A stretch of 64,000 nucleotides of DNA from contig JAVRCV020000033.1 in the NCBI GenBank assembly GCA_034530615.2, forward strand, positions 1-64,000. Direction: 5' to 3'. Source of the DNA: Aulosira sp. ZfuVER01. Its GTDB lineage: Bacteria > Cyanobacteriota > Cyanobacteriia > Cyanobacteriales > Nostocaceae. The stretch's first letter is position 1. Each line of letters begins with the position of its first letter. The notes under the pieces were generated by a model. The model searched no databases. It was not told the DNA's origin and saw only the letters and a list, made by a program, of their open reading frames with translations. This document shows, one piece after another, positions 1-26,353 of this stretch. The translations under genes were made by a program, and so were the position numbers.

Positions 1-36
1 TTTTATAATTTTACTACCTACTTTTATCATAAGTGA

Positions 37-2250
37 TTATACGAACATGATATTATTCAAACTATTGGCAACATCGGGATGTTCCTTACCCAGTACCTTC
101 TCCCCAATAGCCAAAGCACGTTGCAACAGAGGTAGAGCTTGTTGATATTTCTCCTGTCCTACGTAAACCATAGCCAAATTATTGAGGTTTTGGGCAACAT
201 CGGGATGTTCGTTACCCAGTACTTTTTCTCTAATAGCTAGAGCACGTTGCCACAGAAGTTCCGCCTGCTGATAGTTACCCTGTCCTTGATACAGTACGGC
301 TAAGTTGTTTAGGCTACTGGCAACATTAGGATGTTCATTACCCAGTACCTTCTCCCTAATAGCCAGAGCGCGTTGATAGAGAGGTTCTGCCTGTTGATAC
401 TTCCCCTGTGTCCGGTAAAATTCAGCCAAATTATTGAAGTTTTGGGCAACATCGGGATGTTCGTTGCCCAATGCTTTCTCCCTAATAGCCAGAGCACGTT
501 GATAAAGAGGTTCTGCCTGTTGATAATCTCCTTTTAAGTGGTAAAGTATGGCTAAATCATTTAGGCTAGAGGCAAAATCAGGATGTAAGTTGCCTAATAC
601 TTTTTCTCTAATAGTTAATGCACGTTGATACAGGGGTAAAGCCTGTTGATAGTTCCCTTGTGTCCGATACAGTCCTGCCAAATTGTTGAGGATAGAGGCA
701 ACATCAGGATGTTCCTTACCCAGTACCTTCTCTCTAATAGCCAAAGCACTTTGGAACAGGGGTAAAGCCTGTTGATAGTTCCCCTGTGCCTCATACAGTC
801 CTGCCAAATTATTTAAGCTTTCCGCAACATCAGGATGTTCATTGCCTAAAACTTTCTCTCTAATAGCCAAAGCACGTTGATACAGGGGTAAAGCTTGTTG
901 ATATTTTCCCTGTGAATAGTAGAGTGTGGCTAAATTATTCAGGCTAACAGCAACCAATGGATGTTCCTTACCCAGTACCTTCTCTCTAATAGCTAGTGCA
1001 CGTTGATACAAAGGTTCAGCCTGTTGATATTTTCCCTGTGTAGAGTAAAGTGCGGCTAAATTATTTAGGCTAACAGCAACCAATGGATGTTCATTGCCTA
1101 AAACTTTCTCTCTAATAGCCAGAGAGCGTTGATACAAAGGTAGAGCTTGTTGATAGTTTCCCTGTACCCGGTATAGTTCTGCTAAATTGTTTAGGCTAGA
1201 GGCAACCAATAGATGTTGACTGCCTAAAACTTTCTCTGTAATAGCCAGAGCACGTTGCAACAAAGGTTTAGCCTGTTGATAGTTCCCTTGTTGTATGTAA
1301 AGTGTAGCTAAATTTTGCAGGCTAGAGGCAACATCGGGATGTTCATTGCCTAAAACTTTTTCTCTAATAGCCAGAGCGCGTTGATACAAAGGTAGAGCTT
1401 GTTGATATTTCCCCTGCTCATTATATAGTGCGGCTAAATTATTCAGGCTAGTAGCTACCAATGGATGTTCCTTACCCAGTACCTTCTCTCTGATAGCTAG
1501 TGCGCGTTGCAATAAAGGTTCTGCTTGTTGATAGTTCCCCTGGTCATAATACATTGAAGCCAAATTATTTAAGCTTTCCGCAACATCAGGATGTTCTGTA
1601 CCCAGTACCTTCTCTCTGATAGCTAGTGCACGTTGATATAGAGGTTGCGCTTGTTGATTGTTCCCCTGGTCATCATATAGTGCCGCTAAATTATTTAGGC
1701 TAGTGGCGACATCAGGATGTTCGTTGCCCAGTACCTTCTCTCTAATAGCCAGAGAGCGTTGATACAGAGGTTGTGCTTGTTGATTGTTCCCTTGTCTATG
1801 ATAGATTAAAGCCAAATTACTCAAACTAGTGGCGACATCAGGATGTTCGTTGCCTAGTACCTTCTGTCTGATAGCTAGTGCGCGTTGTAATAAAGGTTCT
1901 GCTTGCCGATCGTTTCCCTGTTCGTGATACATTAAACCCAAATTATTCAGGCTAGTAGCCACCAATGGATGTTCGTTACCCAATACTTTCTCTCTGATAG
2001 CTAGTGCGCGTTCTGCTAAGGGGATGGCAGTACTGTATTTACCTGCTTGGTATAACTTTATAACCTGTTCGTTGAGTCGATCTGCTTCCTTTAAGGCTGC
2101 TGTTTGTTCGGTTGAATATGCTGGGGGCGGCTGTTGGGCTATACTTTTGACTGGAATACTTAACAGCAGTGATGTTGCAATTGCAATTCCTATTGACCAA
2201 GGTCTTAAGAAGCTACTTGTTGCATTAATAATACTGTATACTTTTTTCAC
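37..2250 (-). CDS. Secreted TPR-repeat protein (42-aa kinesin-light-chain-type repeats), no CHAT domain
   Basis: 737-aa ORF with GTG start and hydrophobic signal peptide (…LLLSIPVKSIAQQ). Consecutive 42-aa repeats such as HPDVATSLNNLAxLYxxQGNYQQAEPLYQRALAIREKVLG; ends abruptly within a repeat (…SLNNIMFV). Confidence 0.9.
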   Translation of the reverse strand: MKKVYSIINATSSFLRPWSIGIAIATSLLLSIPVKSIAQQPPPAYSTEQTAALKEADRLNEQVIKLYQAGKYSTAIPLAERALAIREKVLGNEHPLVATSLNNLGLMYHEQGNDRQAEPLLQRALAIRQKVLGNEHPDVATSLSNLALIYHRQGNNQQAQPLYQRSLAIREKVLGNEHPDVATSLNNLAALYDDQGNNQQAQPLYQRALAIREKVLGTEHPDVAESLNNLASMYYDQGNYQQAEPLLQRALAIREKVLGKEHPLVATSLNNLAALYNEQGKYQQALPLYQRALAIREKVLGNEHPDVASSLQNLATLYIQQGNYQQAKPLLQRALAITEKVLGSQHLLVASSLNNLAELYRVQGNYQQALPLYQRSLAIREKVLGNEHPLVAVSLNNLAALYSTQGKYQQAEPLYQRALAIREKVLGKEHPLVAVSLNNLATLYYSQGKYQQALPLYQRALAIREKVLGNEHPDVAESLNNLAGLYEAQGNYQQALPLFQSALAIREKVLGKEHPDVASILNNLAGLYRTQGNYQQALPLYQRALTIREKVLGNLHPDFASSLNDLAILYHLKGDYQQAEPLYQRALAIREKALGNEHPDVAQNFNNLAEFYRTQGKYQQAEPLYQRALAIREKVLGNEHPNVASSLNNLAVLYQGQGNYQQAELLWQRALAIREKVLGNEHPDVAQNLNNLAMVYVGQEKYQQALPLLQRALAIGEKVLGKEHPDVANSLNNIMFV

Positions 2251-2420: not shown

Positions 2421-5400
2421 CTACTTGTTACTCAAAGGTGTCCAGTTACCAGAAGGAACAAACGCAGCCCAGAATCGAGGATGCTGATAATTTTGGCTAT
2501 TGAGTAACTCTATCTGTGCAGAACGTAAAGCTTCATGTCTGCCTTTACCAGCTTTCAAGTTTTGATAATACTTCACCATTAATTCTTTGGTTGCCGCATC
2601 ATCTACTTGCCATAAACTTAAAATCTGAGTTTGAGCGCCAGCCATCACTAAAGCACGGCGCAAACCATAAACACCATCCCCAACTTGCACATCACCTCTA
2701 CCTGTGTCGCAGGCGGAAAGCACTACCAAATTAGTTGAGCGCAAATCTAAACCAGCCACTTCTAAGGCTGTGAGTACGCCATCATCGCTACCTGATGCTA
2801 CCCGATCGCGTTTATTAGCACCAGCCAACGCCAAGCCAGAACGTAATAAGGGATTTTCTATTTGCAAAATCTTAGGCGATCGCGTTGTCATTTCTGTACC
2901 CCGTGATGCATTCAAATTTTGTTCAACATCGCTAATAAAAAAACCGTGGGTAGCTAGATGTAAAATACTGGGACTGTGAAGTTTTTTGATTGTAGTTTCT
3001 GTGGCATCTTTACCTAGCAACACTTGCGCATTGGGTAAGACAGCTTTGATGGCTGTGGCTTCAGCTTTAGTCGCATCTAAGGGATCGAATACCAGATTTG
3101 CCAAGTCTCCAGAGCGTAAATTCTGAGAACCACGCACATTAGGCGCTTTAGCTACAGTTACAGCTTGTAGTTGGTTGTTATAGTCTATATCTGCTAGCAC
3201 TACAGGAGCAGAAGATTTATTTCCACTTGGCGCAAAGCGTAACAAATCCCGTCCACTGGTAAGGTAAGAAAAAGCGTAGCGCTGAATTAGGAATTGTCCT
3301 TGCTCGTTGGTGAGTGCTTCAAAGGGAATTAATGTTAACTGTCCATCCGGAGAAATTAATAAATGACGCGCATTACCTAATAAAGGAAGGATTGGTTCTA
3401 TTAATTTTCTATCTAAAGCGCGAGCCAGTTTTTTAAATGATTTTCCCGTCGCTAACGCTGCTTGAAAATTAATCGCCAATTGGTTAATTTCTGCGGCTTC
3501 TCCTAAATCAATCCACTTTGGTTTGCCAGAAGATTGTAATACCGCTACCGCATAATGCGGTTTATCCCATCCTTGCCCAATTATTTTGCTTTTGGGATTG
3601 TATGGTTGATATTGGACAATTTCTACTAAAGCTGCATCTTGGGGTATTTTGGCTTGAATTGCTGCTAGTTCTACTGATTGAGTTTGCGTGCGGAATTCGG
3701 CACTTTTAGTACTAATCGCTGCTTCCAATTGCTCTTTTTGAGCGTCTAGTTCTTCTAACTGAGATTTAGAGTTTGCAGTTTGTTTTTCTGCTTCCGAAAA
3801 TACTAGAGATGATAGTTGCTGTTGTAGCTGCAACCACTGAGTAAATAACTTTTGGGTTTTGGGGTTGCTGTCAAGTTGAGCGCGTAGTATTTGAATACTA
3901 TCAGCTACGGCATCTAATACCAGCCCTTTGCGGCGTAATACAGTAGTTAATGCTAAAGATGCGGCGGTGGGATTATTGCTAGCTCCATTGAGAGCTAGGG
4001 AAACGCTGAGATTGGTTGTGCCTGTAAAAGTTTTCACATAATTCTGTTTTCTTTGTTCTGAGCCAACAGCAAAAATTAATTTGAGATTGTGTTCTTCAAT
4101 CTCTAATGCTTGGTGTAAAAAATCGATAGCACGAGCAATATCACCTCGATCTTGGTAAAGTAAAGCTAAATTACTTAAGTTTGTGGCTACAGATGGATGT
4201 TCGTTACCCAGTATCTTCTTATAGATAGCTAAAGAGCGCAGAAACAGAGGTTCTGCTTTTTCATAGTTTCCTTGATACTGGTATAGTGCTGCTAAATTAT
4301 TCAGGCTCAAAGCAACATCAGGATGTTCGTTACCGAGTACCTTCTCTTGGATAGCTAAAGAGCGTTGCAGCAAAGGTTCTGCCTTTTGATAATTTCCTTG
4401 ATACTGATAAACTAGTGCCAAATTATTCAAAGCAAGAGCAAAATTTGTATGTTCGTTACCCAGCGTCTTTTCATAGATTGTTAAAGCATATTGAAATAGA
4501 GTTTCTGCTTGTGCATATTTCCCTTGATCTCGATATAAATTAGCCAAATTATTCAAACTCAGAGCAACAGAAGGATGTTCTTTTCCTAGTATCTTCTCGT
4601 CAATAGCTAAAGAGCGTTGAAATAAAGATTCTGCCTGGTCATAGTTCCCCTGCTCTTGGTAAAGTAGTGCTAAATTATTCAGACTTTGGGCAACATCAGA
4701 ATGGGAATCACCTAGTACTTTCTCTCTAATACCTAGAGAGCGTTGAAATAGAGGTTCAGCTTGTTGATATTTTCCCTGTAATTGGTAAAGTAGTGCCAAA
4801 TTATTCAGAGCAAGAGCAACATGGGGATGTGAGTTACCTAGAACTTTCTCGATGATAGCTAGAGAGCGTTGATAAAAACCTTCTGCCTGCTGATATTTTC
4901 CTTGTACTTGATAAAGTAGTGCCAAATTATTTAGACTTTGGGCAACATCAGGGTGAGAGTTACCTAGTATCTTTTCTCTAATAGCTAGAGAGCGTTGATA
5001 AAAAACTTCTGCTTGTTGATAGTTGCCTATTTCTTTGTATAAATAAGCCAAATTATTCAGAGTGCTGGCAACATCTGGATGTTCTTCACCAAATAGTCTT
5101 TTATAGATGTCTAGAGAACGTTGATAAAGCACTTCTGCTTGTTGATATTTAGCTTGTGCATTGTATAGCAATCCTAAATTATTCAGTGTATTAGCAACTA
5201 GTTGATGCGAGTTACCCAAGACTTTTTCATAGATACTTAAAGCGCGTTGATATAGAGGCTCAGCCTGTTGATATTTTCCCTGTAATCGATATACTTTTGC
5301 TAAATTATTTAAACTAGTGGCAACATTTGGATGCTCTTTACCCTGTAGTTTTTCATAAATACTCACAGCTTGTTGATATAGAGGTTCTGCTGGTTGATAT

Positions 5401-5990
5401 TTTCCTTGCTCTTGGTAGATATTAGCTAAATTATTTAAGCTGGTGGCAACATCAGGATGTTCATTACCTAGTACCTTGGTTCTGATCGCCAAAGAGCGTT
5501 GAAATAGGGGTTCTGCTTTTTGATAATTTCCTAGATATTGGTAAACTAATGCCAAATTATTCAGGCTAGTGGCGACAATGGGATGTGAATTACCCAGAAC
5601 TTTTTCTGCGATCGCCAGAGAGCGTTGAAACAAAGGTTCTGCTTGTTGATAATTTCCCTGCTCTCGATATAAGATAGCTAAATTGTTTAAGCTTTCGCCT
5701 ACATCTAGATGTTGATTCCCCAATACTTTCTCTCTAATAGCGAGTGTGCGCTCTGCTAAGGGGATGGCTGAACTGTATTTACCTTCTTGGTATAGTTTGT
5801 TTACCTGCTGATTCAGTTGTTCCGCTTCTTGTAAAGCTGCGCGTTGCTCTACTGAATATGAGGTAGATTGCTGTTGTGCTGTACTTTTAACCGGGATAGT
5901 TAACAATGAGGCTGTAGTAATTGCAGCGATCGCTAACCAAGGTGCGAACAAGCTACTTGCTGCATGAAGATTACTGTATACTTTTTTCAC
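2421..5990 (-). CDS. Secreted TPR-repeat + CHAT (caspase-like) protease
   Basis: 1189 aa; signal peptide, 42-aa TPR array, then CHAT domain with ISPDGQLTLIPFEAL, LHLATHG (catalytic His), LSACDTG (catalytic Cys) and HPRFWAAF. Confidence 0.93.
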   Translation of the reverse strand: MKKVYSNLHAASSLFAPWLAIAAITTASLLTIPVKSTAQQQSTSYSVEQRAALQEAEQLNQQVNKLYQEGKYSSAIPLAERTLAIREKVLGNQHLDVGESLNNLAILYREQGNYQQAEPLFQRSLAIAEKVLGNSHPIVATSLNNLALVYQYLGNYQKAEPLFQRSLAIRTKVLGNEHPDVATSLNNLANIYQEQGKYQPAEPLYQQAVSIYEKLQGKEHPNVATSLNNLAKVYRLQGKYQQAEPLYQRALSIYEKVLGNSHQLVANTLNNLGLLYNAQAKYQQAEVLYQRSLDIYKRLFGEEHPDVASTLNNLAYLYKEIGNYQQAEVFYQRSLAIREKILGNSHPDVAQSLNNLALLYQVQGKYQQAEGFYQRSLAIIEKVLGNSHPHVALALNNLALLYQLQGKYQQAEPLFQRSLGIREKVLGDSHSDVAQSLNNLALLYQEQGNYDQAESLFQRSLAIDEKILGKEHPSVALSLNNLANLYRDQGKYAQAETLFQYALTIYEKTLGNEHTNFALALNNLALVYQYQGNYQKAEPLLQRSLAIQEKVLGNEHPDVALSLNNLAALYQYQGNYEKAEPLFLRSLAIYKKILGNEHPSVATNLSNLALLYQDRGDIARAIDFLHQALEIEEHNLKLIFAVGSEQRKQNYVKTFTGTTNLSVSLALNGASNNPTAASLALTTVLRRKGLVLDAVADSIQILRAQLDSNPKTQKLFTQWLQLQQQLSSLVFSEAEKQTANSKSQLEELDAQKEQLEAAISTKSAEFRTQTQSVELAAIQAKIPQDAALVEIVQYQPYNPKSKIIGQGWDKPHYAVAVLQSSGKPKWIDLGEAAEINQLAINFQAALATGKSFKKLARALDRKLIEPILPLLGNARHLLISPDGQLTLIPFEALTNEQGQFLIQRYAFSYLTSGRDLLRFAPSGNKSSAPVVLADIDYNNQLQAVTVAKAPNVRGSQNLRSGDLANLVFDPLDATKAEATAIKAVLPNAQVLLGKDATETTIKKLHSPSILHLATHGFFISDVEQNLNASRGTEMTTRSPKILQIENPLLRSGLALAGANKRDRVASGSDDGVLTALEVAGLDLRSTNLVVLSACDTGRGDVQVGDGVYGLRRALVMAGAQTQILSLWQVDDAATKELMVKYYQNLKAGKGRHEALRSAQIELLNSQNYQHPRFWAAFVPSGNWTPLSNK

Positions 5991-14667: not shown

Positions 14668-16749
14668 ATGACATCCCCACCATCTTCAAATTCTTGGAAT
14701 GGGCGCTTTATCGGTGATAATGAGCGATACCGTTTAGACAAACGGTTAGCTGGTGGTGGTATGGGTGAAGTCTTCCTGGCAATGGATACCCGTGTAGGTC
14801 AGCAAGTAGCATTGAAGTTATTGAAAGATACCCTAGTAGCCTCGAAAGAGATGCGAAAGCGGTTTGAGCGGGAAATAGCAGTCTGTGCGGCTTTGCAAAG
14901 TGACCACATTGTGAAGATTAGCGATTGTGGCGTCACAGTTGAAGGACATCCATTCTATGTAATGGAGTATCTGCGGGGGCAAACACTGCGACAATTACTA
15001 CTACGTGAGAAGCGTTTATCGGTAGAGCGAACTGTAGGTATCATCGCTCAAGTTTGCAAAGGTTTAAAGCTAGCTCATGAAGGAGTAGATTTACAGCGCG
15101 ATGGTGGTAAAAGCACTGAGCATATTCAGGTAATCCATCGCGACCTCAAACCAGACAATATCTTTTTAGTGCCTACAGATTTGGGAGAGTGGGTGAAGAT
15201 TTTGGATTTTGGTGTTGCAAAAATCCGCCATGAATCTTCAGAACAAACTAATATCACCAATACATTTATTGGCACATTTCGCTACGCAGCACCGGAGCAG
15301 ATCCAAAGCGATAAAAACTTAAACGCCAGGGCAGATATTTACAGCTTGGGACTGATCCTATACGAAATGCTGAGTGGAGTAGATCCCTTTGGTTTAGGCG
15401 TCAAGGCTAATAATATCAGCGAAGCCTCTTGGGTATTAGCCCATGCTTATGAACCGCCGAAGCCATTGCGATCGCAACTTGGGTGTGAATATTTGTCTGA
15501 GCAATTAGAGGCTGTAGTTCTCAAATGCTTGCACAAGAATCCACAGAATCGTTTTGCCAGTGTAGAAGAACTGGATCGAGCTTTGCAGGCTGCGGCTAAA
15601 CCAATCGCTCTTAATCTTAGCGTTGAGGATGAACAAGCGATCGCTCCCCATCCCACTGTACCCAGACCAGCTACCAATCTCGACACCATACCCCGACCGC
15701 TGACAGCGATTGACCAAAGCCAACTTGAGGACACCATGCCTCCTTCTCAACCGTTGTATCATCATGGCGAGACCGTCCCACGACCATTGACACCAGTTGA
15801 GCCAAGCCAAGGGGAACATGAAACCATACCTCGTCCCCAACCTTTGTATCATCAAGGTTCAGATCGAGAAACCACACCCCGACCCCTAACACCGGTTGAG
15901 TACAGCCAAGGGGAACATGAAACCATACCTCGTCCCCAACCTTTGTATCATCAAGGTTCAGATCGAGAAACCACACCCCGACCCCTAACACCAATTGAGC
16001 AAAGTCAGCCAGAAGGCACGATTTTTCAACCACGTCCTGGACAACACCAAGGTTCAGATGGGGAAACAGTACCGCGACCTCTGCAACCTATTCCCCAACA
16101 CCAAGGACAAGATGACACCATACCTCGCCCCCAACCTATGCCAAGTCAAGGTTCAGACGGGGAAACAGTGCTACGACCTCTACAACCCATTCCCCAAAAC
16201 CAACCAGAAGGCACGATTTTTCAACCACGACCAGCAGCACATCCAGAAACTAATCAAAATTTAGTTGGGAATAATCCTGAATTCAGCCAAGAAGGGACAA
16301 TTTTTCAACCCCGCCCTGCATCCCACCAAGGCGAACAACCAGCATCAGAAGGGACATTGTTCCAACCACGCCCCAAGCCCCGACCAATACCGGATGGTGG
16401 TACAATTTTTCAACCCCGCCCTGCATCTGGCCAAGCTAGTCGTACACCCGACGGCGGTACAATCTTTCAACCCCGTCCTGCATCTCATCCCAGTGGTCAG
16501 CCCACACCCGATGGTGGCACAATCTTTCAACCCCGCCCTGGACAAACAGCACGGGATGGTAGCACGATTTTTCAACCTAGGACACACAAACAACCACTTC
16601 AGAAGCTTCCTCAAAATTTCTGGCGAATTCTAGGTATAGTGTTGGCGATTGGATTTGCCTTAGCAGCAGTCATTTACTTGTATCCTCACTTACAACCTAG
16701 TAAAGAAAACGATCAGAAAACTTGGCAGAAATTCAACCATGTATGGTGA
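14668..16749 (+). CDS. Hanks-type Ser/Thr kinase with Pro/Gln/Thr repeat linker and C-terminal TM helix
   Basis: GGGMGEV, VALK, HRDLKPDN, DFG, GTFRYAAPE; repeat region; ILGIVLAIGFALAAVIYLY. Confidence 0.95.
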   Translation: MTSPPSSNSWNGRFIGDNERYRLDKRLAGGGMGEVFLAMDTRVGQQVALKLLKDTLVASKEMRKRFEREIAVCAALQSDHIVKISDCGVTVEGHPFYVMEYLRGQTLRQLLLREKRLSVERTVGIIAQVCKGLKLAHEGVDLQRDGGKSTEHIQVIHRDLKPDNIFLVPTDLGEWVKILDFGVAKIRHESSEQTNITNTFIGTFRYAAPEQIQSDKNLNARADIYSLGLILYEMLSGVDPFGLGVKANNISEASWVLAHAYEPPKPLRSQLGCEYLSEQLEAVVLKCLHKNPQNRFASVEELDRALQAAAKPIALNLSVEDEQAIAPHPTVPRPATNLDTIPRPLTAIDQSQLEDTMPPSQPLYHHGETVPRPLTPVEPSQGEHETIPRPQPLYHQGSDRETTPRPLTPVEYSQGEHETIPRPQPLYHQGSDRETTPRPLTPIEQSQPEGTIFQPRPGQHQGSDGETVPRPLQPIPQHQGQDDTIPRPQPMPSQGSDGETVLRPLQPIPQNQPEGTIFQPRPAAHPETNQNLVGNNPEFSQEGTIFQPRPASHQGEQPASEGTLFQPRPKPRPIPDGGTIFQPRPASGQASRTPDGGTIFQPRPASHPSGQPTPDGGTIFQPRPGQTARDGSTIFQPRTHKQPLQKLPQNFWRILGIVLAIGFALAAVIYLYPHLQPSKENDQKTWQKFNHVW

Positions 16750-24051: not shown

Positions 24052-25203
24052 TTATTCTTGATTTTCTTGCTTCAGTGCCCGACGAGCTAACTTGACGTAA
24101 GTTTTCACGGTAGTATAGGGCATTTCTAAATCTTGGGCTATTATTTGCAATGATTCGCCCATTTCCCGTCTGGCCAAAATCGTTGCCCATGTAGAGGCAA
24201 TTTTATCAGTGCGATCGCCTCCTGTACGTTTTCGTTGAGCTGTAAATAGCGCCGTCAGTTCCGCAATGCGTTCTCCCAACAGATTTGTTAGCAATTGGGT
24301 AGGTGTAGTTGGTTCTGGTTCCAGCCATTCTAAGCGCGTTTGTCCCAGTCCAAAGGTAGTTTTGTGTCCTGTACCGCAGTAAGGCGCAAGTCTGACTAAG
24401 GCATAAAACAACTGGGTAAACTCAGTATTAGCTAAAGCGGCTTTACTTAAACTACAAGAAATTGCCCCTGTGAACCCAGTCACCGAACCTCGTTTACCAG
24501 CTGCTACTTTTACCGACTCCAAGCGGTGCTGGTGGATAATTACTCCTTCGTCTATCCATTCGAGAAAAGATTCTGGTTCTACAAACATTCCCGAAAAGTC
24601 ATTCCAGCGACGCAGGTAACTATGAAAGAGATTTACAGGAACAGGGAGAGGGAAATGATGACCTTTACGGCGGAAGCTGGTAGGTGAGACAAAGCTGAGA
24701 CTGATGTTAGTTTTTTTCTCTATAGATGACTGCAACAATTGGGCGTAGGTGGTGGGTAAATGGGCAATACTCACCTGTTTGATTTGCAAGGGTGCATCTC
24801 TTAAAGCCAAGGTTTGTGGTAGTTGGGTTAACCATTGACTGAGAAACTGCGCCACTCTTTGAGAAAGGGCGTTGACGTGCCAACGATAAATTTGTTTTGC
24901 TTCTAGTTGCAGTTGTTTCCCAGTAGGGAGAAGTTGACCTTCCAGCGCCGAAATATTGAAAGGTTTTTCTGACTCCCCATCATGGAGATAAGCAGAAAGT
25001 TCTGGGTTTAATTGCCGTACTTGATCGAGAAACCAAGCATGGAGTCCAATTGTGTACTGAGAATAAAGGGTACTAGAACTAGTTGCCTCAAGGTCAAACA
25101 CCAGTCCTACCAATTCAGTGTCATCTGTCCAAGTGGGAATAGAGGGCGGTAACACAGACTTGGACTTGGCTTTGCGACTAGTAGATATAGCTGCTCTTGC
25201 CAT
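24052..25203 (-). CDS. cas6: CRISPR-associated endoribonuclease Cas6 with C-terminal helix-turn-helix extension (orphan)
   Basis: GLHAWFL, KPFNIS, FVSPTSFR, PLPVPVNLFHSYLRRWNDF, GFTG, glycine-rich loop CGTGHKTTFGLG; tail GESLQIIAQDLEMPYTTVKTYVKLARRAL is HTH-like. Confidence 0.93.
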   Translation of the reverse strand: MARAAISTSRKAKSKSVLPPSIPTWTDDTELVGLVFDLEATSSSTLYSQYTIGLHAWFLDQVRQLNPELSAYLHDGESEKPFNISALEGQLLPTGKQLQLEAKQIYRWHVNALSQRVAQFLSQWLTQLPQTLALRDAPLQIKQVSIAHLPTTYAQLLQSSIEKKTNISLSFVSPTSFRRKGHHFPLPVPVNLFHSYLRRWNDFSGMFVEPESFLEWIDEGVIIHQHRLESVKVAAGKRGSVTGFTGAISCSLSKAALANTEFTQLFYALVRLAPYCGTGHKTTFGLGQTRLEWLEPEPTTPTQLLTNLLGERIAELTALFTAQRKRTGGDRTDKIASTWATILARREMGESLQIIAQDLEMPYTTVKTYVKLARRALKQENQE

Positions 25204-25222
25204 CGCTGCTTGCTATGCAAAT

Positions 25223-25242
25223 AACGTTAAATATTTTACGTT
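25223..25242. promoter_or_regulatory. 20-bp near-perfect palindrome upstream of cas6 (candidate operator or RNA hairpin)
   Basis: AACGTTAAATATTTTACGTT matches its reverse complement at 18/20 positions. Confidence 0.5.
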
Positions 25243-25278
25243 CTTTTCATCCCCATAAGGAGATAAAAATGAATTATC
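25243..25278 (-). CRISPR. Solitary degenerate CRISPR repeat in the cas6 leader (not an array)
   Basis: Minus strand GATAATTCATTTTTAT-CTCC-TTAT-GGGG-ATGAAAAG (36 nt): 4-bp stem, 4-nt loop, 8-nt tail. Resembles the Nostoc type III repeat recalled as GTTTTAATTCCTTTA-CCCC-TCAC-GGGG-ATGGAAAC. Confidence 0.62.
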
Positions 25279-25765
25279 AGAGAGTAAAACAACTTTCTGC
25301 TGCCCAAGCTAGTAGAAAATCAGAATCTGCAAATGACTGGTGAGTTTTGAGGTGGGAATTTTGCCAAATGGGACTAGTCGCCAGGGAATGTATTTTTTAT
25401 TCATGCCAAAATCCTCTAACTTTAAGCAAGCGAAACCGCTAAAAACGGGTAAAGGCCTATGCTAATTGCAGTCGTTGGAAATGGAACTAAAAATCAATAG
25501 GGATCAATTTCAACATAATTCGTAATTACTCATTAACTCCACAATTATTTAGTTTTGTAACCTAAAAATTGCATTTCTATGGTGGCCATAATTGCTGAAA
25601 TTGCTTATTGACCAGGCGATTGGCAAAATATTACAGATTGTTAAAATAACTTTCTCAATTAGGACAGCCGATGCGTTTGGGGAATTTAAAATTCAAAATT
25701 GCAATCCCCATAAATAAATGATGTTGTTCGTCAATTCACTATGGATGAAACCCTTCACCCTTAAC

Positions 25766-26353
25766 TCATAGACCAGAGGACTCAATATCCAATTGAATTT
25801 CACAATTTAATCTTTTGAGTAGCGATATTTTATACACATCGCCTTGATTCATTTCACCTGGTGTCTGCATTTGACTCAAAGCGGTGACAACTTCATCAGA
25901 ATTTGCGGTGAGAATAACCACAGGGCGATCGCACGCTATGGGAAAATCATGCCAAGTGCCAATATGCAATAAGAGTCCGTAACCAGGAGGAAACCGCAGT
26001 GCTTGCACTTGATTTAAATTAGGCAAGTTTTCCTCATTGTCATGATTAGGTGGTGCCATCACCATAATAAATGGTGCTTGTCCCAAACCAATAAACATTT
26101 GGGTCATGTGCATATGGCGTTCTAACCAAATGATTGACGGATATCCTGGTAGGATTTTTGCAGTTCTAAAGGTAGCTGTTCCTCGATAGGTAAAGTCAAT
26201 ATTTTCGCCTTCTAATACTCGTCCTTGATAAAAAGGGATTCCTAAGCCAGGTTTGCTAACATCATCACCTAATAGATGTCCATAGGGTTGAGTATTTTCT
26301 GTGTTGGCATCAATTACAGGGATTTTTAAAACATTAGTGGGAGAAATATTCAT
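25766..26353 (-). CDS. Ureidoglycolate lyase-like cupin
   Basis: ENTQPYG, WLERHMHMTQMF, GLLLHIGTWHDFP. Confidence 0.8.
   Translation of the reverse strand: MNISPTNVLKIPVIDANTENTQPYGHLLGDDVSKPGLGIPFYQGRVLEGENIDFTYRGTATFRTAKILPGYPSIIWLERHMHMTQMFIGLGQAPFIMVMAPPNHDNEENLPNLNQVQALRFPPGYGLLLHIGTWHDFPIACDRPVVILTANSDEVVTALSQMQTPGEMNQGDVYKISLLKRLNCEIQLDIESSGL

What the first reader, a model, noticed from the sequence alone, without database searches (positions are those of the whole stretch)
24052..25278. Orphan Cas6-HTH with a single Cas6-substrate repeat in its own 5' leader: candidate array-less autoregulatory module
Seen: cas6 has no other cas gene or array in the window. 39 nt before its ATG, on the mRNA strand, lies GATAATTCATTTTTAT-CTCC-TTAT-GGGG-ATGAAAAG (36 nt). 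The stem pairs fully only on the cas6 strand (U-G wobble; the other strand gives a C-A mismatch) and is followed by exactly 8 nt. Established: Cas6 cuts at the 3' base of the repeat stem leaving an 8-nt handle; Nostoc type III repeats have CCCC-N4-GGGG-ATGGAAAC geometry; repeat-derived regulatory RNAs (CreA/CreR, solitary repeat units) exist. Inference: Cas6 binds or cleaves its own leader as negative feedback, or the cut releases handle plus a spacer-length 39-nt RNA usable as a guide, while the enzyme serves arrays in trans.
Basis: partly seen in the sequence, partly recalled or inferred. Interest (0 to 1): 0.85.

Follow-up and report, generated by a model that had tools for sequence, protein, structure and literature searches.

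The report
CRISPR repeat remnant in cas6 promoter
A lone leftover CRISPR repeat sits right against the start signal of a gene for a CRISPR RNA-cutting enzyme that carries an extra DNA-binding domain, and it is kept there in many related cyanobacteria, which hints that the enzyme controls its own production through it.

Summary
The gene (24052-25203, minus) is the Alr1482-type Cas6 of heterocystous cyanobacteria: a hairpin-repeat Cas6 fused to an ECF-sigma-region-4-like HTH. The fusion is published; the function of its HTH is not known. The window holds no array and no other cas gene.

Of 138 distinct orthologous upstream regions, 94 carry this element. In 18 it is the in-register last repeat of an upstream array, and in 76 it stands alone. 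In the lone copies the 5' half of the repeat has decayed to zero information while the hairpin and tag persist.

The element lies 11-12 nt before a conserved TAnnAT hexamer in 87 of 94 loci (25238-25233 here). Conservation starts at the hairpin, and lineages that lost the hairpin keep the hexamer. So the element most likely lies at about -37 to -17 of the cas6 promoter, not in the mRNA leader.

- **Best reading (0.45):** a selected promoter-embedded repeat, probably the operator for the enzyme's own HTH.
- **Rivals:** an RNA substrate on read-through transcripts (0.25), a relic (0.2).
- **Missing:** no TSS data could be obtained.

The parts
24052..25203 (-). cas6-HTH gene, 383 aa (P0001), Alr1482-type Cas6 with a C-terminal sigma-region-4-like domain
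   Evidence: ORF and translation. TIGR01877 106.6 bits and Pfam CRISPR_Cas6 74 bits. 98 near-full-length orthologous places at 54-100% identity. The family is described in the Reimann et al. preprint passages.
24328..25086 (-). Cas6 ribonuclease part (about residues 40-292), including the glycine-rich loop GTGHKTTFGLG
   Evidence: PADLOC Cas6 PDLC01466, residues 41-295, E 1.7e-59. Best solved relative is Thermus thermophilus Cas6A 4c8y, E 8.9e-13. G277, T278, G279, H280, K281, T282, T283, F284, G285, L286 and G287 are invariant in 32 orthologues.
24070..24300 (-). C-terminal HTH domain (about residues 302-378), ECF sigma region 4-like
   Evidence: PADLOC PDLC01151 'HTH ... often fused to Cas6', E 1.3e-22. 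Pfam Sigma70_r4_2 22.4 bits, below cut-off. Model pLDDT 82.9. Top Foldseek hits are sigma region 4 / -35-binding domains (3hug E 0.024, 2h27, 6jhe), none at E <= 0.001. The putative recognition helix TVKTYxKLAR is invariant or nearly so.
25243..25263 (-). Conserved repeat remnant: T-CTCC (25263-25259), loop TTAT (25258-25255), GGGG (25254-25251), 8-nt tag ATGAAAAG (25250-25243). Predicted at about -37 to -17 of the promoter.
   Evidence: Sequence. The element is present in 94 of 138 distinct orthologous upstream regions, and in 75 of 87 with at least 70% protein identity. It is the in-register terminal array repeat in 18.
25264..25278 (-). Not conserved. In this lineage its T-run pairs with the tag to extend the hairpin to 11 bp.
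   Evidence: Zero information at these positions in 76 solitary copies. Pairs 6-12 are at shuffle level across loci.
25233..25238 (-). TAAAAT, predicted -10 hexamer of the cas6-HTH promoter, 12 nt after GGGG (4 nt after the tag)
   Evidence: A TAnnAT hexamer lies 12 nt (73 loci) or 11 nt (14 loci) after GGGG in 87 of 94 loci: TAAAAT 57, TACAAT 15, TAGAAT 8, TAAGAT 5, TATAAT 2. It is kept in lineages that lost the hairpin. No TSS was measured.
25204..25226 (-). Predicted 5' UTR of about 23 nt, if transcription starts about 7 nt after the hexamer. Contains the conserved CATAGCA.
   Evidence: Inferred from the hexamer position. Conservation is shown.

Best explanation
The element is the surviving last repeat of a CRISPR array that ancestrally lay directly upstream of this cas6-HTH gene and ran in the same direction. 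Relatives still have that array. In this genome the array is gone and the repeat's 5' half has decayed. The 5-bp palindrome/hairpin (TCCCC-N4-GGGGA type; here TCTCC...GGGGA) and the 8-nt tag persist at a fixed 4 nt before the gene's -10 box (TAAAAT, 25238-25233).

The element therefore occupies about -37 to -17 of the cas6-HTH promoter and is probably not part of the main mRNA. The most likely working is that it is a cis-regulatory DNA site. The enzyme, modelled as a dimer, would bind it through its two sigma-region-4-like HTH domains and so control its own transcription. From the position between -35 and -10, that control is most likely repression.

Shown: the homology to terminal array repeats, the conservation, the fixed spacing to the hexamer, and the domain make-up.
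Inferred: that the hexamer is the promoter, that the HTH binds this DNA, and the sign of regulation.
For: 1. Identity. In 18 of 94 element-bearing loci the element is the in-register (about 72-75 nt) last repeat of an upstream array in the gene's orientation, often full length and identical to the array repeat.
2. Selection. In 76 solitary copies the repeat's 5' half carries about 0 bits while TCCCC, GGGGA and the A-rich tag stay informative. Anchored on the hexamer, and so not ascertained on the hairpin, 73 of 85 close-clade loci keep it. Alignment of 12 upstream regions shows conservation starting sharply at the 5' arm. In some array-adjacent loci the element keeps its own identity (tag ATGAAATC against array ACTGAAAC), so it is not merely homogenised by the array.
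3. Promoter placement. TAnnAT lies 12 or 11 nt after GGGG in 87 of 94 loci, with -10-like variation at positions 3-4. 85 of 87 close-clade loci have the hexamer 26-40 nt before ATG. Hairpin-less lineages (L107-109, L160, L118/L033, L176/178, L135, L031) keep the hexamer, the UTR and an open gene. Four of these lineages keep the tag (KGAAAT) without an intact hairpin, which an RNA-hairpin role does not explain.
4. A DNA reader is fused to the enzyme. The HTH matches PADLOC PDLC01151, and the best fold matches are -35-binding sigma region 4 domains. Its putative recognition helix is nearly invariant, as is the palindrome. The literature calls its role elusive and suggests dsDNA binding.
5. Dimer. 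The homodimer model scores 0.52 against 0.00 for the best of 3 controls. That mark was reached by 20 of 30 proteins solved as pairs of one chain and 1 of 23 solved as single chains. The runs agree in at least 84% of contacts and the partner pLDDT is at least 77. The pass may come from likeness to solved Cas6 dimers. A dimer would fit a palindromic site.
6. Uniqueness. This is the only intergenic solitary hairpin-plus-tag in the 8-Mb genome.
Against: - No transcription start was measured. The only RNA run found gave one 210-nt contig inside the gene.
- The predicted promoter has no -35 match, and the consensus scan reports no promoter on this strand.
- DNA binding by the HTH is untested anywhere.
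- The sense-strand RNA hairpin is stable here.
- In the 18 array-linked loci the element must be transcribed for the last crRNA to mature. An RNA role is therefore certain to be possible in relatives.
- Stem variants lean slightly toward sense-RNA-compatible wobbles: 9 T-G against 5 C-A cells, which are not independent.
- A distant clade (L081-83, L087-89) has a TTAAAAT upstream of its TTCCCC-N4-GGGGAA hairpin, which would put the hairpin in the RNA.
- Between this window and its closest relative, 5 of 12 hairpin positions differ but only 1 of the 47 downstream. At least 6 lineages lost the hairpin without losing the gene. The constraint on the hairpin is therefore not absolute.
- No second site with hairpin plus hexamer exists in the genome that would indicate a regulon: 6 hits against 3 in the control.
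Confidence: 0.45

Rival explanations
1. RNA-level feedback. The element is transcribed from an upstream start, from read-through of the upstream small ORF or gene, or in relatives from the array promoter. The Cas6 domain then binds or cuts it at the base of the stem. This separates or marks the cas6 mRNA, which would have a processed 5' end at 25250.
For: - The element has the geometry of a hairpin Cas6 substrate, and the Alr1482 family cleaves such repeats in vitro and in vivo (preprint passages).
- In 18 loci it is the array's in-register last repeat, so it is transcribed there if the last spacer is used.
- The sense-strand fold is -12.2 kcal/mol, z -3.5, against z 0 for the antisense strand.
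- The 5-bp stem is nearly invariant, with 9 T-G wobble cells against 5 C-A cells.
- A co-directional small ORF kept open in 4 close relatives ends 46 nt upstream of the hairpin.
- A distant clade has a -10-like hexamer upstream of its hairpin.
Against: - The conserved TAnnAT lies downstream of the element at fixed spacing.
- No conserved promoter lies upstream; conservation starts at the hairpin.
- Hairpin-less lineages keep the tag and hexamer.
- The closest relative's stem (CCCC/GGAG) mispairs on the sense strand.
- There are no compensatory changes apart from one locus, L043.
- In this window the 11-bp stem buries 7 of the 8 tag nucleotides, unlike array repeats.
- The tag differs at 2 of 8 positions from every array tag in this genome.
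Confidence: 0.25
2. Functionless relic. Recombination between repeats collapsed the upstream array to one repeat, which is decaying. It appears conserved only because it abuts the promoter and because collapses are recent and recurrent.
For: - Arrays in these cyanobacteria fragment readily (preprint).
- All intermediate states are seen: contiguous arrays, arrays some distance away, and pairs of hairpins 41-44 nt apart.
- The hairpin was lost in at least 6 lineages with the gene intact.
- 5 of 12 hairpin positions differ between the two closest relatives.
- Shmakov et al. judged type III stand-alone repeats to be degraded remnants.
Against: - A collapse leaves a whole repeat. Yet in 76 solitary copies the 5' half is at 0 bits while the hairpin and tag stay informative. 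That asymmetry is not expected from neutral decay.
- Retention is 73 of 85 in a hexamer-anchored count across genera whose flanks are unalignable.
- The spacing to the hexamer is fixed.
- The element keeps its own identity beside a different array repeat.
Confidence: 0.2
3. Array-less guide. Cutting releases the tag plus the 39-nt downstream stretch as a crRNA-like guide for a type III complex.
For: Only the geometry: an 8-nt tag followed by a spacer-length stretch.
Against: - The stretch is the gene's own promoter and leader. It is conserved as such, with a -10 pattern.
- No second repeat or other 3' end-defining element follows it.
- The block is unique in the genome, with no complementary target found.
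- The element is probably not transcribed from the main start.
Confidence: 0.03
4. Transcription insulator. The hairpin stops or pauses read-through from upstream, whether from the former array or from neighbouring genes, before the cas6 promoter.
For: A stable hairpin lies on the sense strand directly before the promoter.
Against: - No T-run follows the hairpin, and the terminator scan does not report it.
- The conserved core stem is only 5 bp across loci.
Confidence: 0.05

Closest known systems
Alr1482, the type III-D Cas6 of Anabaena sp. PCC 7120 (Reimann et al., bioRxiv 10.1101/2020.04.14.041012; passages read)
   Same: - The length class matches (377 aa against 383 aa) and the architecture is the same: Cas6 plus a C-terminal domain of about 70 aa resembling sigma-70 domain 4.
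- The clade is restricted to heterocystous cyanobacteria, and the domain is present in all clade members.
- The enzyme serves remote 'orphan' arrays.
   Different: - The passages I read say nothing about a repeat in the gene's promoter and call the domain's role elusive.
- Alr1482 is described there as the Type III-D Cas6, and the III-D cassette as linked to arrays CR_2 and CR_3. Here the gene stands alone among housekeeping genes.
- I did not examine the PCC 7120 locus itself.
Repeat-like regulatory mini-arrays (CreR, CreA and other crRNA-like RNAs; Shmakov et al. preprint, passages; other papers seen as abstracts only in the listing)
   Same: A degenerate CRISPR repeat next to a cas gene, conserved among relatives, and proposed to autoregulate cas expression.
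   Different: - Those act as RNAs loaded into effector complexes (Cascade, Cas12a) whose spacer pairs with a cas promoter.
- Here there is one repeat, no spacer with a target, and a likely position upstream of the start.
- The proposed reader here is a protein domain fused to Cas6.
- Shmakov et al. found no conserved positions for such elements in type III systems.
Degenerate terminal repeat of a CRISPR array
   Same: It is homologous to one, and in 18 loci it is one.
   Different: Ordinary terminal repeats have no known role beyond ending the last crRNA and they decay freely. This one outlives its array and keeps fixed spacing to a -10 box.
ECF sigma factor region 4 bound to -35 DNA (2h27 sigmaE, 6jhe SigW, 3hug SigL)
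   Same: These are the best fold matches of the C-terminal domain. From memory (not tested here), ECF -35 elements are of the GGAAC/TGAAAC type, which resembles the repeat tags (ATGGAAAC, ACTGAAAC).
   Different: - Foldseek E-values are all above 0.001, and the profile search of PDB sequences gave nothing below E 0.19.
- The domain is fused to a ribonuclease, not to sigma region 2.
- The site ends 4 nt from the -10 box, not 16-17 nt.
Thermus thermophilus Cas6A (4c8y/4c8z) and the T. thermophilus type III Cas6 acting as a negative regulator (PMC12102369, abstract read)
   Same: Cas6A is the closest solved relative of the Cas6 part (E 8.9e-13) and is a hairpin-repeat enzyme. The second paper is a precedent for a Cas6 with a regulatory role beyond processing.
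   Different: Neither has an HTH. The Thermus regulation works by competition during Cascade assembly, not at a promoter.

Membership tests
Cas6 endoribonuclease (TIGR01877 / PF10040) | Profile match above the curated cut-offs | tested here: met
   TIGR01877 106.6 bits (cut-off 58.65). PF10040 74 bits (cut-off 25). PF19308 30.5 bits (cut-off 23.9).
Cas6 endoribonuclease (TIGR01877 / PF10040) | C-terminal glycine-rich loop | tested here: met
   GTGHKTTFGLG at residues 277-287 is invariant in 32 orthologues. That this loop defines the family is recalled knowledge.
Cas6 endoribonuclease (TIGR01877 / PF10040) | Cleaves repeat RNA 8 nt from the repeat's 3' end | not testable with these tools
   Shown for Alr1482 in the preprint. 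Not shown for this protein or this element.
Alr1482-clade Cas6 with sigma-domain-4-like extension | C-terminal HTH domain of about 70 aa after the Cas6 fold | tested here: met
   PADLOC PDLC01151, residues 302-378, E 1.3e-22. Four-helix model with pLDDT 82.9. Top fold hits are sigma region 4. Pfam Sigma70_r4_2 is below its cut-off.
Alr1482-clade Cas6 with sigma-domain-4-like extension | Orthology with the Nostocales clade | tested here: met
   98 near-full-length places at 54-100% identity in genomes of the same family. Named relatives are Nostoc, Calothrix, Tolypothrix, Anabaena, Nodularia and others. The PCC 7120 protein itself was not aligned.
CRISPR array | Several direct repeats separated by unique spacers | tested here: not met
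   There is a single copy. The window has no array and contig C33 has none.
CRISPR repeat (by descent) | Homology and positional identity with array repeats | tested here: met
   It is the in-register terminal repeat in 18 loci and identical to the array repeat in about 10 of them. The 3' 20 nt match 15 of 20 positions of this genome's class A repeat (my hand count on the consensus).
crRNA-like regulatory mini-array (CreR/CreA type) | Repeat(s) flanking a spacer that is partly complementary to a promoter, next to a PAM | tested here: not met
   No second repeat. The downstream stretch is the promoter itself, not its complement. The block has no other match in the genome.
Sigma-70-type promoter | -10 hexamer TAnnnT at a suitable distance from the start codon | tested here: met
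   TAAAAT at 25238-25233. 85 of 87 close-clade loci have TAnnAT 26-40 nt before ATG.
Sigma-70-type promoter | -35 hexamer 16-18 nt upstream | tested here: not met
   The consensus scan finds no promoter on this strand. The -35 position falls in the variable loop and the 5' arm.
Sigma-70-type promoter | Mapped transcription start | not testable with these tools
   The only RNA run found gave one contig inside the CDS. No readable published TSS table was found.
Intrinsic terminator | GC-rich hairpin followed by a T-run | tested here: not met
   Not reported by the scan. The hairpin is followed by GAACGTAAAA.
Rfam CRISPR direct-repeat or other RNA family | Covariance-model match | tested here: not met
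   0 matches at gathering score in the window. Only chance-level hits (E >= 0.53) in 25180-25320.

The most novel reading that the evidence does not exclude
Cas6-HTH reads the same CRISPR repeat in two forms. The Cas6 fold reads it as an RNA hairpin. The ECF-sigma-4-like HTH reads it as double-stranded DNA.

On this reading the repeat remnant in its own promoter is the operator. The hundred-odd repeat copies in the genome's arrays would then be further binding sites. They could titrate the repressor, so that Cas6 supply scales with repeat number, or they could hold the enzyme on array DNA for co-transcriptional capture of the nascent hairpin.
Probability: 0.25. Interest if true: 0.8.

Novelty: new variant of a known kind. 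Interest (0 to 1): 0.6.

Why it matters
The sigma-domain-4-like extension of the Alr1482-type Cas6 is conserved in every clade member, and its role is called elusive in the one study that characterised the enzyme. A conserved repeat remnant wedged against the -10 box of that very gene gives the domain a concrete candidate target, and simple experiments (gel shift, reporter, TSS mapping) could settle the question.

If it holds, it would be a way of regulating a cas gene through a CRISPR repeat read as DNA by a Cas-fused HTH. That differs from the RNA-guided CreR and tracr-L type loops. It would also run against the view that stand-alone repeats near type III systems are only debris.

If it fails, the site is still a clean example of an array collapsing to its last repeat.

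Tried and rejected
- **RNA evidence.** One metatranscriptome run held 0.13 of the sampled words. Laying it gave a single 210-nt contig at 24701-24910 inside the CDS. This says nothing about a start, an end, or whether the element is transcribed.
- **Published TSS data.**
  - The Nodularia CCY9414 paper has no CRISPR text, and its readable supplements hold only a protein list.
  - The supplements of the PCC 7120 RNA-seq paper PMC3141674 could not be read.
  - Only 2 papers in the library mention alr1482.
  - Hou et al. 2019 is cited by others but was not found in the library.
  - Supplements I could not see may hold the alr1482 TSS.
- **Rfam.** Nothing at gathering score and only chance hits in the region.
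- **Covariation.** The 5-bp stem is almost invariant and pairs 6-12 are at shuffle level. This cannot tell RNA from DNA. The 11-bp hairpin of this window is lineage-specific.
- **Regulon search.** Hairpin plus 11-12 nt plus TAnnAT gives 6 hits genome-wide against 3 in the reversed control. The C23 hit precedes no gene.
- **Second solitary hit.** C41:109207 lies inside a coding region. A 21-of-22 look-alike at C4:127152-127173 has GGTG in place of GGGG and lies at the edge of an ORF. I treated both as chance.
- **Alternative promoter.** I considered the tag as a -35 with CATTAT-like as the -10, 16 nt downstream. I rejected it because those positions carry far less information than TAAAAT.
- **PDB sequence profile search with the HTH.** Nothing below E 0.19.
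- **Earlier notes of this scan.** Nothing for this place or this protein. One search failed on a word limit and I did not repeat it.
- **Mimicry of own arrays.** The tag (ATGAAAAG) equals no array tag in this genome. In several relatives the element differs from the adjacent array. I therefore dropped exact mimicry.
Full report
**1. What is in the window**

It is followed by 39 nt and then by the ATG of a 383-aa ORF at 24052-25203.

The ORF is a Cas6:
- TIGR01877 scores 106.6 bits against a cut-off of 58.65.
- Pfam CRISPR_Cas6 scores 74 bits.
- The closest solved relative is Thermus thermophilus Cas6A, 4c8y, at E 8.9e-13.

It carries a C-terminal HTH:
- PADLOC profile PDLC01151, whose own description says the domain is 'often fused to Cas6', matches residues 302-378 at E 1.3e-22.
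- Pfam Sigma70_r4_2 matches below its cut-off.
- A model of the last 92 residues (pLDDT 82.9, four helices) finds -35-binding region 4 of ECF sigma factors as its best fold matches: 3hug, 2h27, 6jhe. No match reaches E <= 0.001.

The gene is orphan in this window:
- The neighbours are housekeeping genes: TldD/PmbA, a Rieske protein, a ureidoglycolate-lyase-like protein, polysaccharide deacetylases, DedA and RNase Z.
- Only 1 of 43 window ORFs scanned matches a Cas family.
- The window has no array, and my array finder listed none on contig C33.

**2. The genome has CRISPR systems elsewhere**

My array finder and consensus script found 12 arrays on eight other contigs. The repeats end in ...CCCC-TCAC-GGGG-ATGGAAAC...CCCC-GCAA-GGGG-ATTGAAAC and related forms.

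I scanned 98 of 143 ORFs flanking those arrays. The scan shows:
- a type III cassette with its own 257-aa Cas6 on C22,
- a type I-D cassette on C46,
- a Cas1 plus a WYL protein on C5.

Arrays on C3, C28, C52, C73 and C4 have no cas gene in the flanks I scanned. The protein search of the genome finds three Cas6 genes in all.

**3. The protein is a known type**

I read passages of the preprint of Reimann et al. (10.1101/2020.04.14.041012). It describes Alr1482 of Anabaena PCC 7120 as follows:
- It is a 377-aa type III-D Cas6.
- Its extra 70 residues resemble sigma-70 domain 4.
- It cleaves one group of repeats strongly and another group weakly.
- Its homologues in Nostocales all keep the extra domain.
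[quoted passage not shown]'

None of the passages returned for 'promoter', 'TSS' or 'leader' concerns a repeat upstream of the gene.

**4. The element is conserved**

A search of 151 genomes of the same family found a match at E <= 1e-20 in 104. I collected 98 near-full-length places (54-100% identity) from these genomes. I added 80 named loci from Nostoc, Calothrix, Tolypothrix, Anabaena, Nodularia, Dolichospermum and others.

This gives 178 loci and 138 distinct upstream regions with at least 150 nt. Of the 138, 94 carry a C-rich/G-rich 4-nt stem with a 3-5-nt loop plus an A-started tag 36-54 nt before the ATG. By identity class that is 75 of 87 at 70% identity or more, and 19 of 51 at 50-70%.

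These loci are related, so the counts are not independent events. Start codons in the distant class are less certain.

**5. What the element is**

In 18 of the 94 loci the element is the last member of an upstream array. It lies in register at about 72-75 nt and in the orientation of the gene. In about ten of these it is a full-length copy of the array's repeat.

In another 19 loci an array lies further upstream. In 57 there is none in the available flank of 0.2-3 kb. Many loci also have an array beginning about 280 nt after the stop codon.

The window's element is therefore the leftover last repeat of an array that once abutted the gene.

**6. It is kept by selection, but only its 3' part**

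- In the 76 solitary copies the positions of the repeat's 5' half carry about 0 bits. TCCCC, GGGGA and the A-rich tag remain informative.
- That count is ascertained on the stem, so I re-anchored on the downstream hexamer. On that anchor, 73 of 85 close-clade loci still show the hairpin.
- Alignment of 12 upstream regions shows conservation beginning abruptly at the 5' arm and running to the ATG.
- Synteny of the flanking genes holds only for the three closest relatives.
- In several loci the element sits in register behind an array yet differs from it: tag ATGAAATC against ACTGAAAC, and other loops. It therefore has its own lineage.

A collapsed array leaves a whole repeat. Loss of one half and retention of the other argues against pure decay.

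**7. Where it lies relative to the promoter**

Exactly 12 nt (73 loci) or 11 nt (14 loci) after GGGG there is a TAnnAT hexamer, in 87 of 94 loci. The hexamers are TAAAAT 57, TACAAT 15, TAGAAT 8, TAAGAT 5 and TATAAT 2. In this window it is TAAAAT at 25238-25233.

Variation confined to positions 3-4 is the signature of a -10 box. That judgement rests on general knowledge of sigma-70 promoters.

Several lineages lost the hairpin:
- L107-109, where heptamer repeats replace it,
- L160,
- L118/L033,
- L176/178,
- L135,
- L031.

All of these keep the hexamer, the downstream leader and an open gene. Four of the lineages keep the tag (TGGAAAT or TGAAAT) at its place without an intact hairpin. An RNA-hairpin function does not explain that.

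No conserved promoter lies upstream of the element. The consensus scan finds none on this strand in 24900-25900.

If transcription starts about 7 nt after the hexamer (near 25226), the layout is:

| Part | Position relative to the start |
|---|---|
| Spacer AACG | -16 to -13 |
| Tag | -24 to -17 |
| GGGG | -28 to -25 |
| Loop | -32 to -29 |
| (T)CTCC | -37 to -33 |

The element would then be promoter DNA, not leader RNA. This is a prediction. I could not obtain a measured start (see section 11).

**8. RNA or DNA?**

For RNA:
- The sense-strand fold is stable here (-12.2 kcal/mol, z -3.5), while the opposite strand's is not.
- The stem is nearly invariant, with 9 T-G cells against 5 C-A cells.
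- In array-linked relatives the element must be transcribed for the last crRNA to be cut.
- A distant clade (L081-83, L087-89) has TTAAAAT upstream of a TTCCCC-N4-GGGGAA hairpin.

Against RNA:
- The closest relative (95% identical protein) has CCCC-ATGA-GGAG, which pairs fully only on the other strand.
- Beyond 5 bp there is no covariation.
- The 11-bp stem of this window buries 7 of the 8 tag nucleotides.
- Tags persist without hairpins.

For DNA:
- The position is in the promoter.
- The element is a 5-bp inverted repeat.
- A sigma-region-4-like HTH is fused to the enzyme, and its putative recognition helix is invariant or nearly so.
- A homodimer model passes its controls: score 0.52 against 0.00 for the best of 3 controls. 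The mark was reached by 20 of 30 proteins solved as pairs of one chain and 1 of 23 solved as single chains. The runs agree in at least 84% of contacts and the partner pLDDT is at least 77. The interface is at residues 180-188, 218-232, 242-244 and 253. The pass may reflect likeness to solved Cas6 dimers.

From memory, not tested here: ECF -35 elements are of the GGAAC/TGAAAC kind, which resembles the repeat tags.

**9. Verdict on mechanism**

I put 0.45 on a selected promoter-embedded repeat that serves as the operator for the enzyme's own HTH. From its position, autorepression is the likelier sign. I put 0.25 on RNA-level binding or cleavage on read-through transcripts, 0.2 on a relic, and the rest on minor options. 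The RNA and DNA readings are not exclusive. The boldest reading is that the protein reads the repeat in both forms.

**10. Novelty**

The fusion is published. The promoter-proximal repeat is not mentioned in anything I could search.
- Searches.
- Passages read.
- Abstract read.

Shmakov et al. (preprint, passages) found no conserved positions for stand-alone repeats in type III loci and regarded them as degraded. Known repeat-derived regulators (CreR, CreA, crRNA-like RNAs) work as guide RNAs in effector complexes. This element would differ in its reader and probably in the form in which it is read. I rate it a new variant of a known kind.

**11. Limits**

- There are no TSS or binding data. 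The one RNA run found gave a single 210-nt contig inside the CDS.
- The Nodularia paper's supplements hold no TSS table, and the supplements of PMC3141674 could not be read.
- The PCC 7120 locus itself was not inspected.
- The counts are over related genomes.
- Flanks of 0.2-3 kb limit the 'no array' calls.
- Foldseek matches are below the usual significance.

Noticed in passing
window 25309-25404 (-): A small ORF (31 aa; ATG at 25404, TAG at 25311-25309) lies co-directional with cas6-HTH and ends 46 nt before the hairpin. It stays open in the three closest relatives despite an in-frame 21-nt indel, giving 38 aa there. If it is expressed, its transcript could run through the hairpin.
   Followed up: partly
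window 25436-25448 (-): A weak terminator-like hairpin (CCGTTTTTAGCGG followed by TTTCGCTTGC) lies between the upstream gene and the small ORF.
   Followed up: no
window 7-2048 and 4081-5810: Two long runs of about 14 and about 13 tandem 126-nt units lie inside two large minus-strand ORFs (37-2250 and 2421-5990). Both ORFs match a TPR-repeat profile.
   Followed up: no
window 14668-16749 (+), repeats at 15730-16585: A protein-kinase-like ORF (matches PD-T4-6 and mad6 kinase profiles) has a C-terminal region of degenerate repeats built around the DNA unit ...ATTTTTCAACCNCGNCC....
   Followed up: no
G000 contigs C3, C4, C5, C22, C28, C46, C52, C73: The genome holds 12 CRISPR arrays in about five repeat classes. 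It has a type III cassette (C22), a type I-D cassette (C46) and a Cas1 plus WYL pair (C5). At least five arrays have no cas gene in the flanks I scanned.
   Followed up: partly
L011/L157, L134, L136, L137, L168, L169 (upstream of their cas6-HTH): A second hairpin-plus-tag lies only 32-44 nt upstream of the promoter-proximal one, so two repeats sit almost without a spacer. These look like arrays caught in the act of collapsing.
   Followed up: no
L081-L083 and L087-L089 (60-63% identical orthologues): This clade has a different layout. GCGATCGC...TTAAAAT is followed 11 nt later by a symmetric TTCCCC-N4-GGGGAA hairpin, 32-37 nt before the ATG, with no CRISPR-like tag. Here the hairpin may lie in the RNA.
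   Followed up: partly
L107-L109 (87% identical orthologues): The hairpin and tag are replaced by tandem heptamers (CCCCATG/CCCAATG). The -10-like hexamer and the leader are kept, with a 9-nt deletion in the leader that is also seen in L010.
   Followed up: no
G000 C4:127152-127173 (L002 about 1501-1523, -): A 21-of-22 look-alike of the window's TCTCCTTATGGGGATGAA stretch, but with GGTG in place of GGGG, lies at the 5' edge of a 257-aa ORF. It is probably chance.
   Followed up: partly
many orthologous loci, about 280 nt after the cas6-HTH stop (for example L032, L043, L053, L068, L077, L093): A second CRISPR array often begins downstream of cas6-HTH in the same orientation, so the gene is frequently sandwiched between two arrays. 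The window has nothing of the kind downstream.
   Followed up: no
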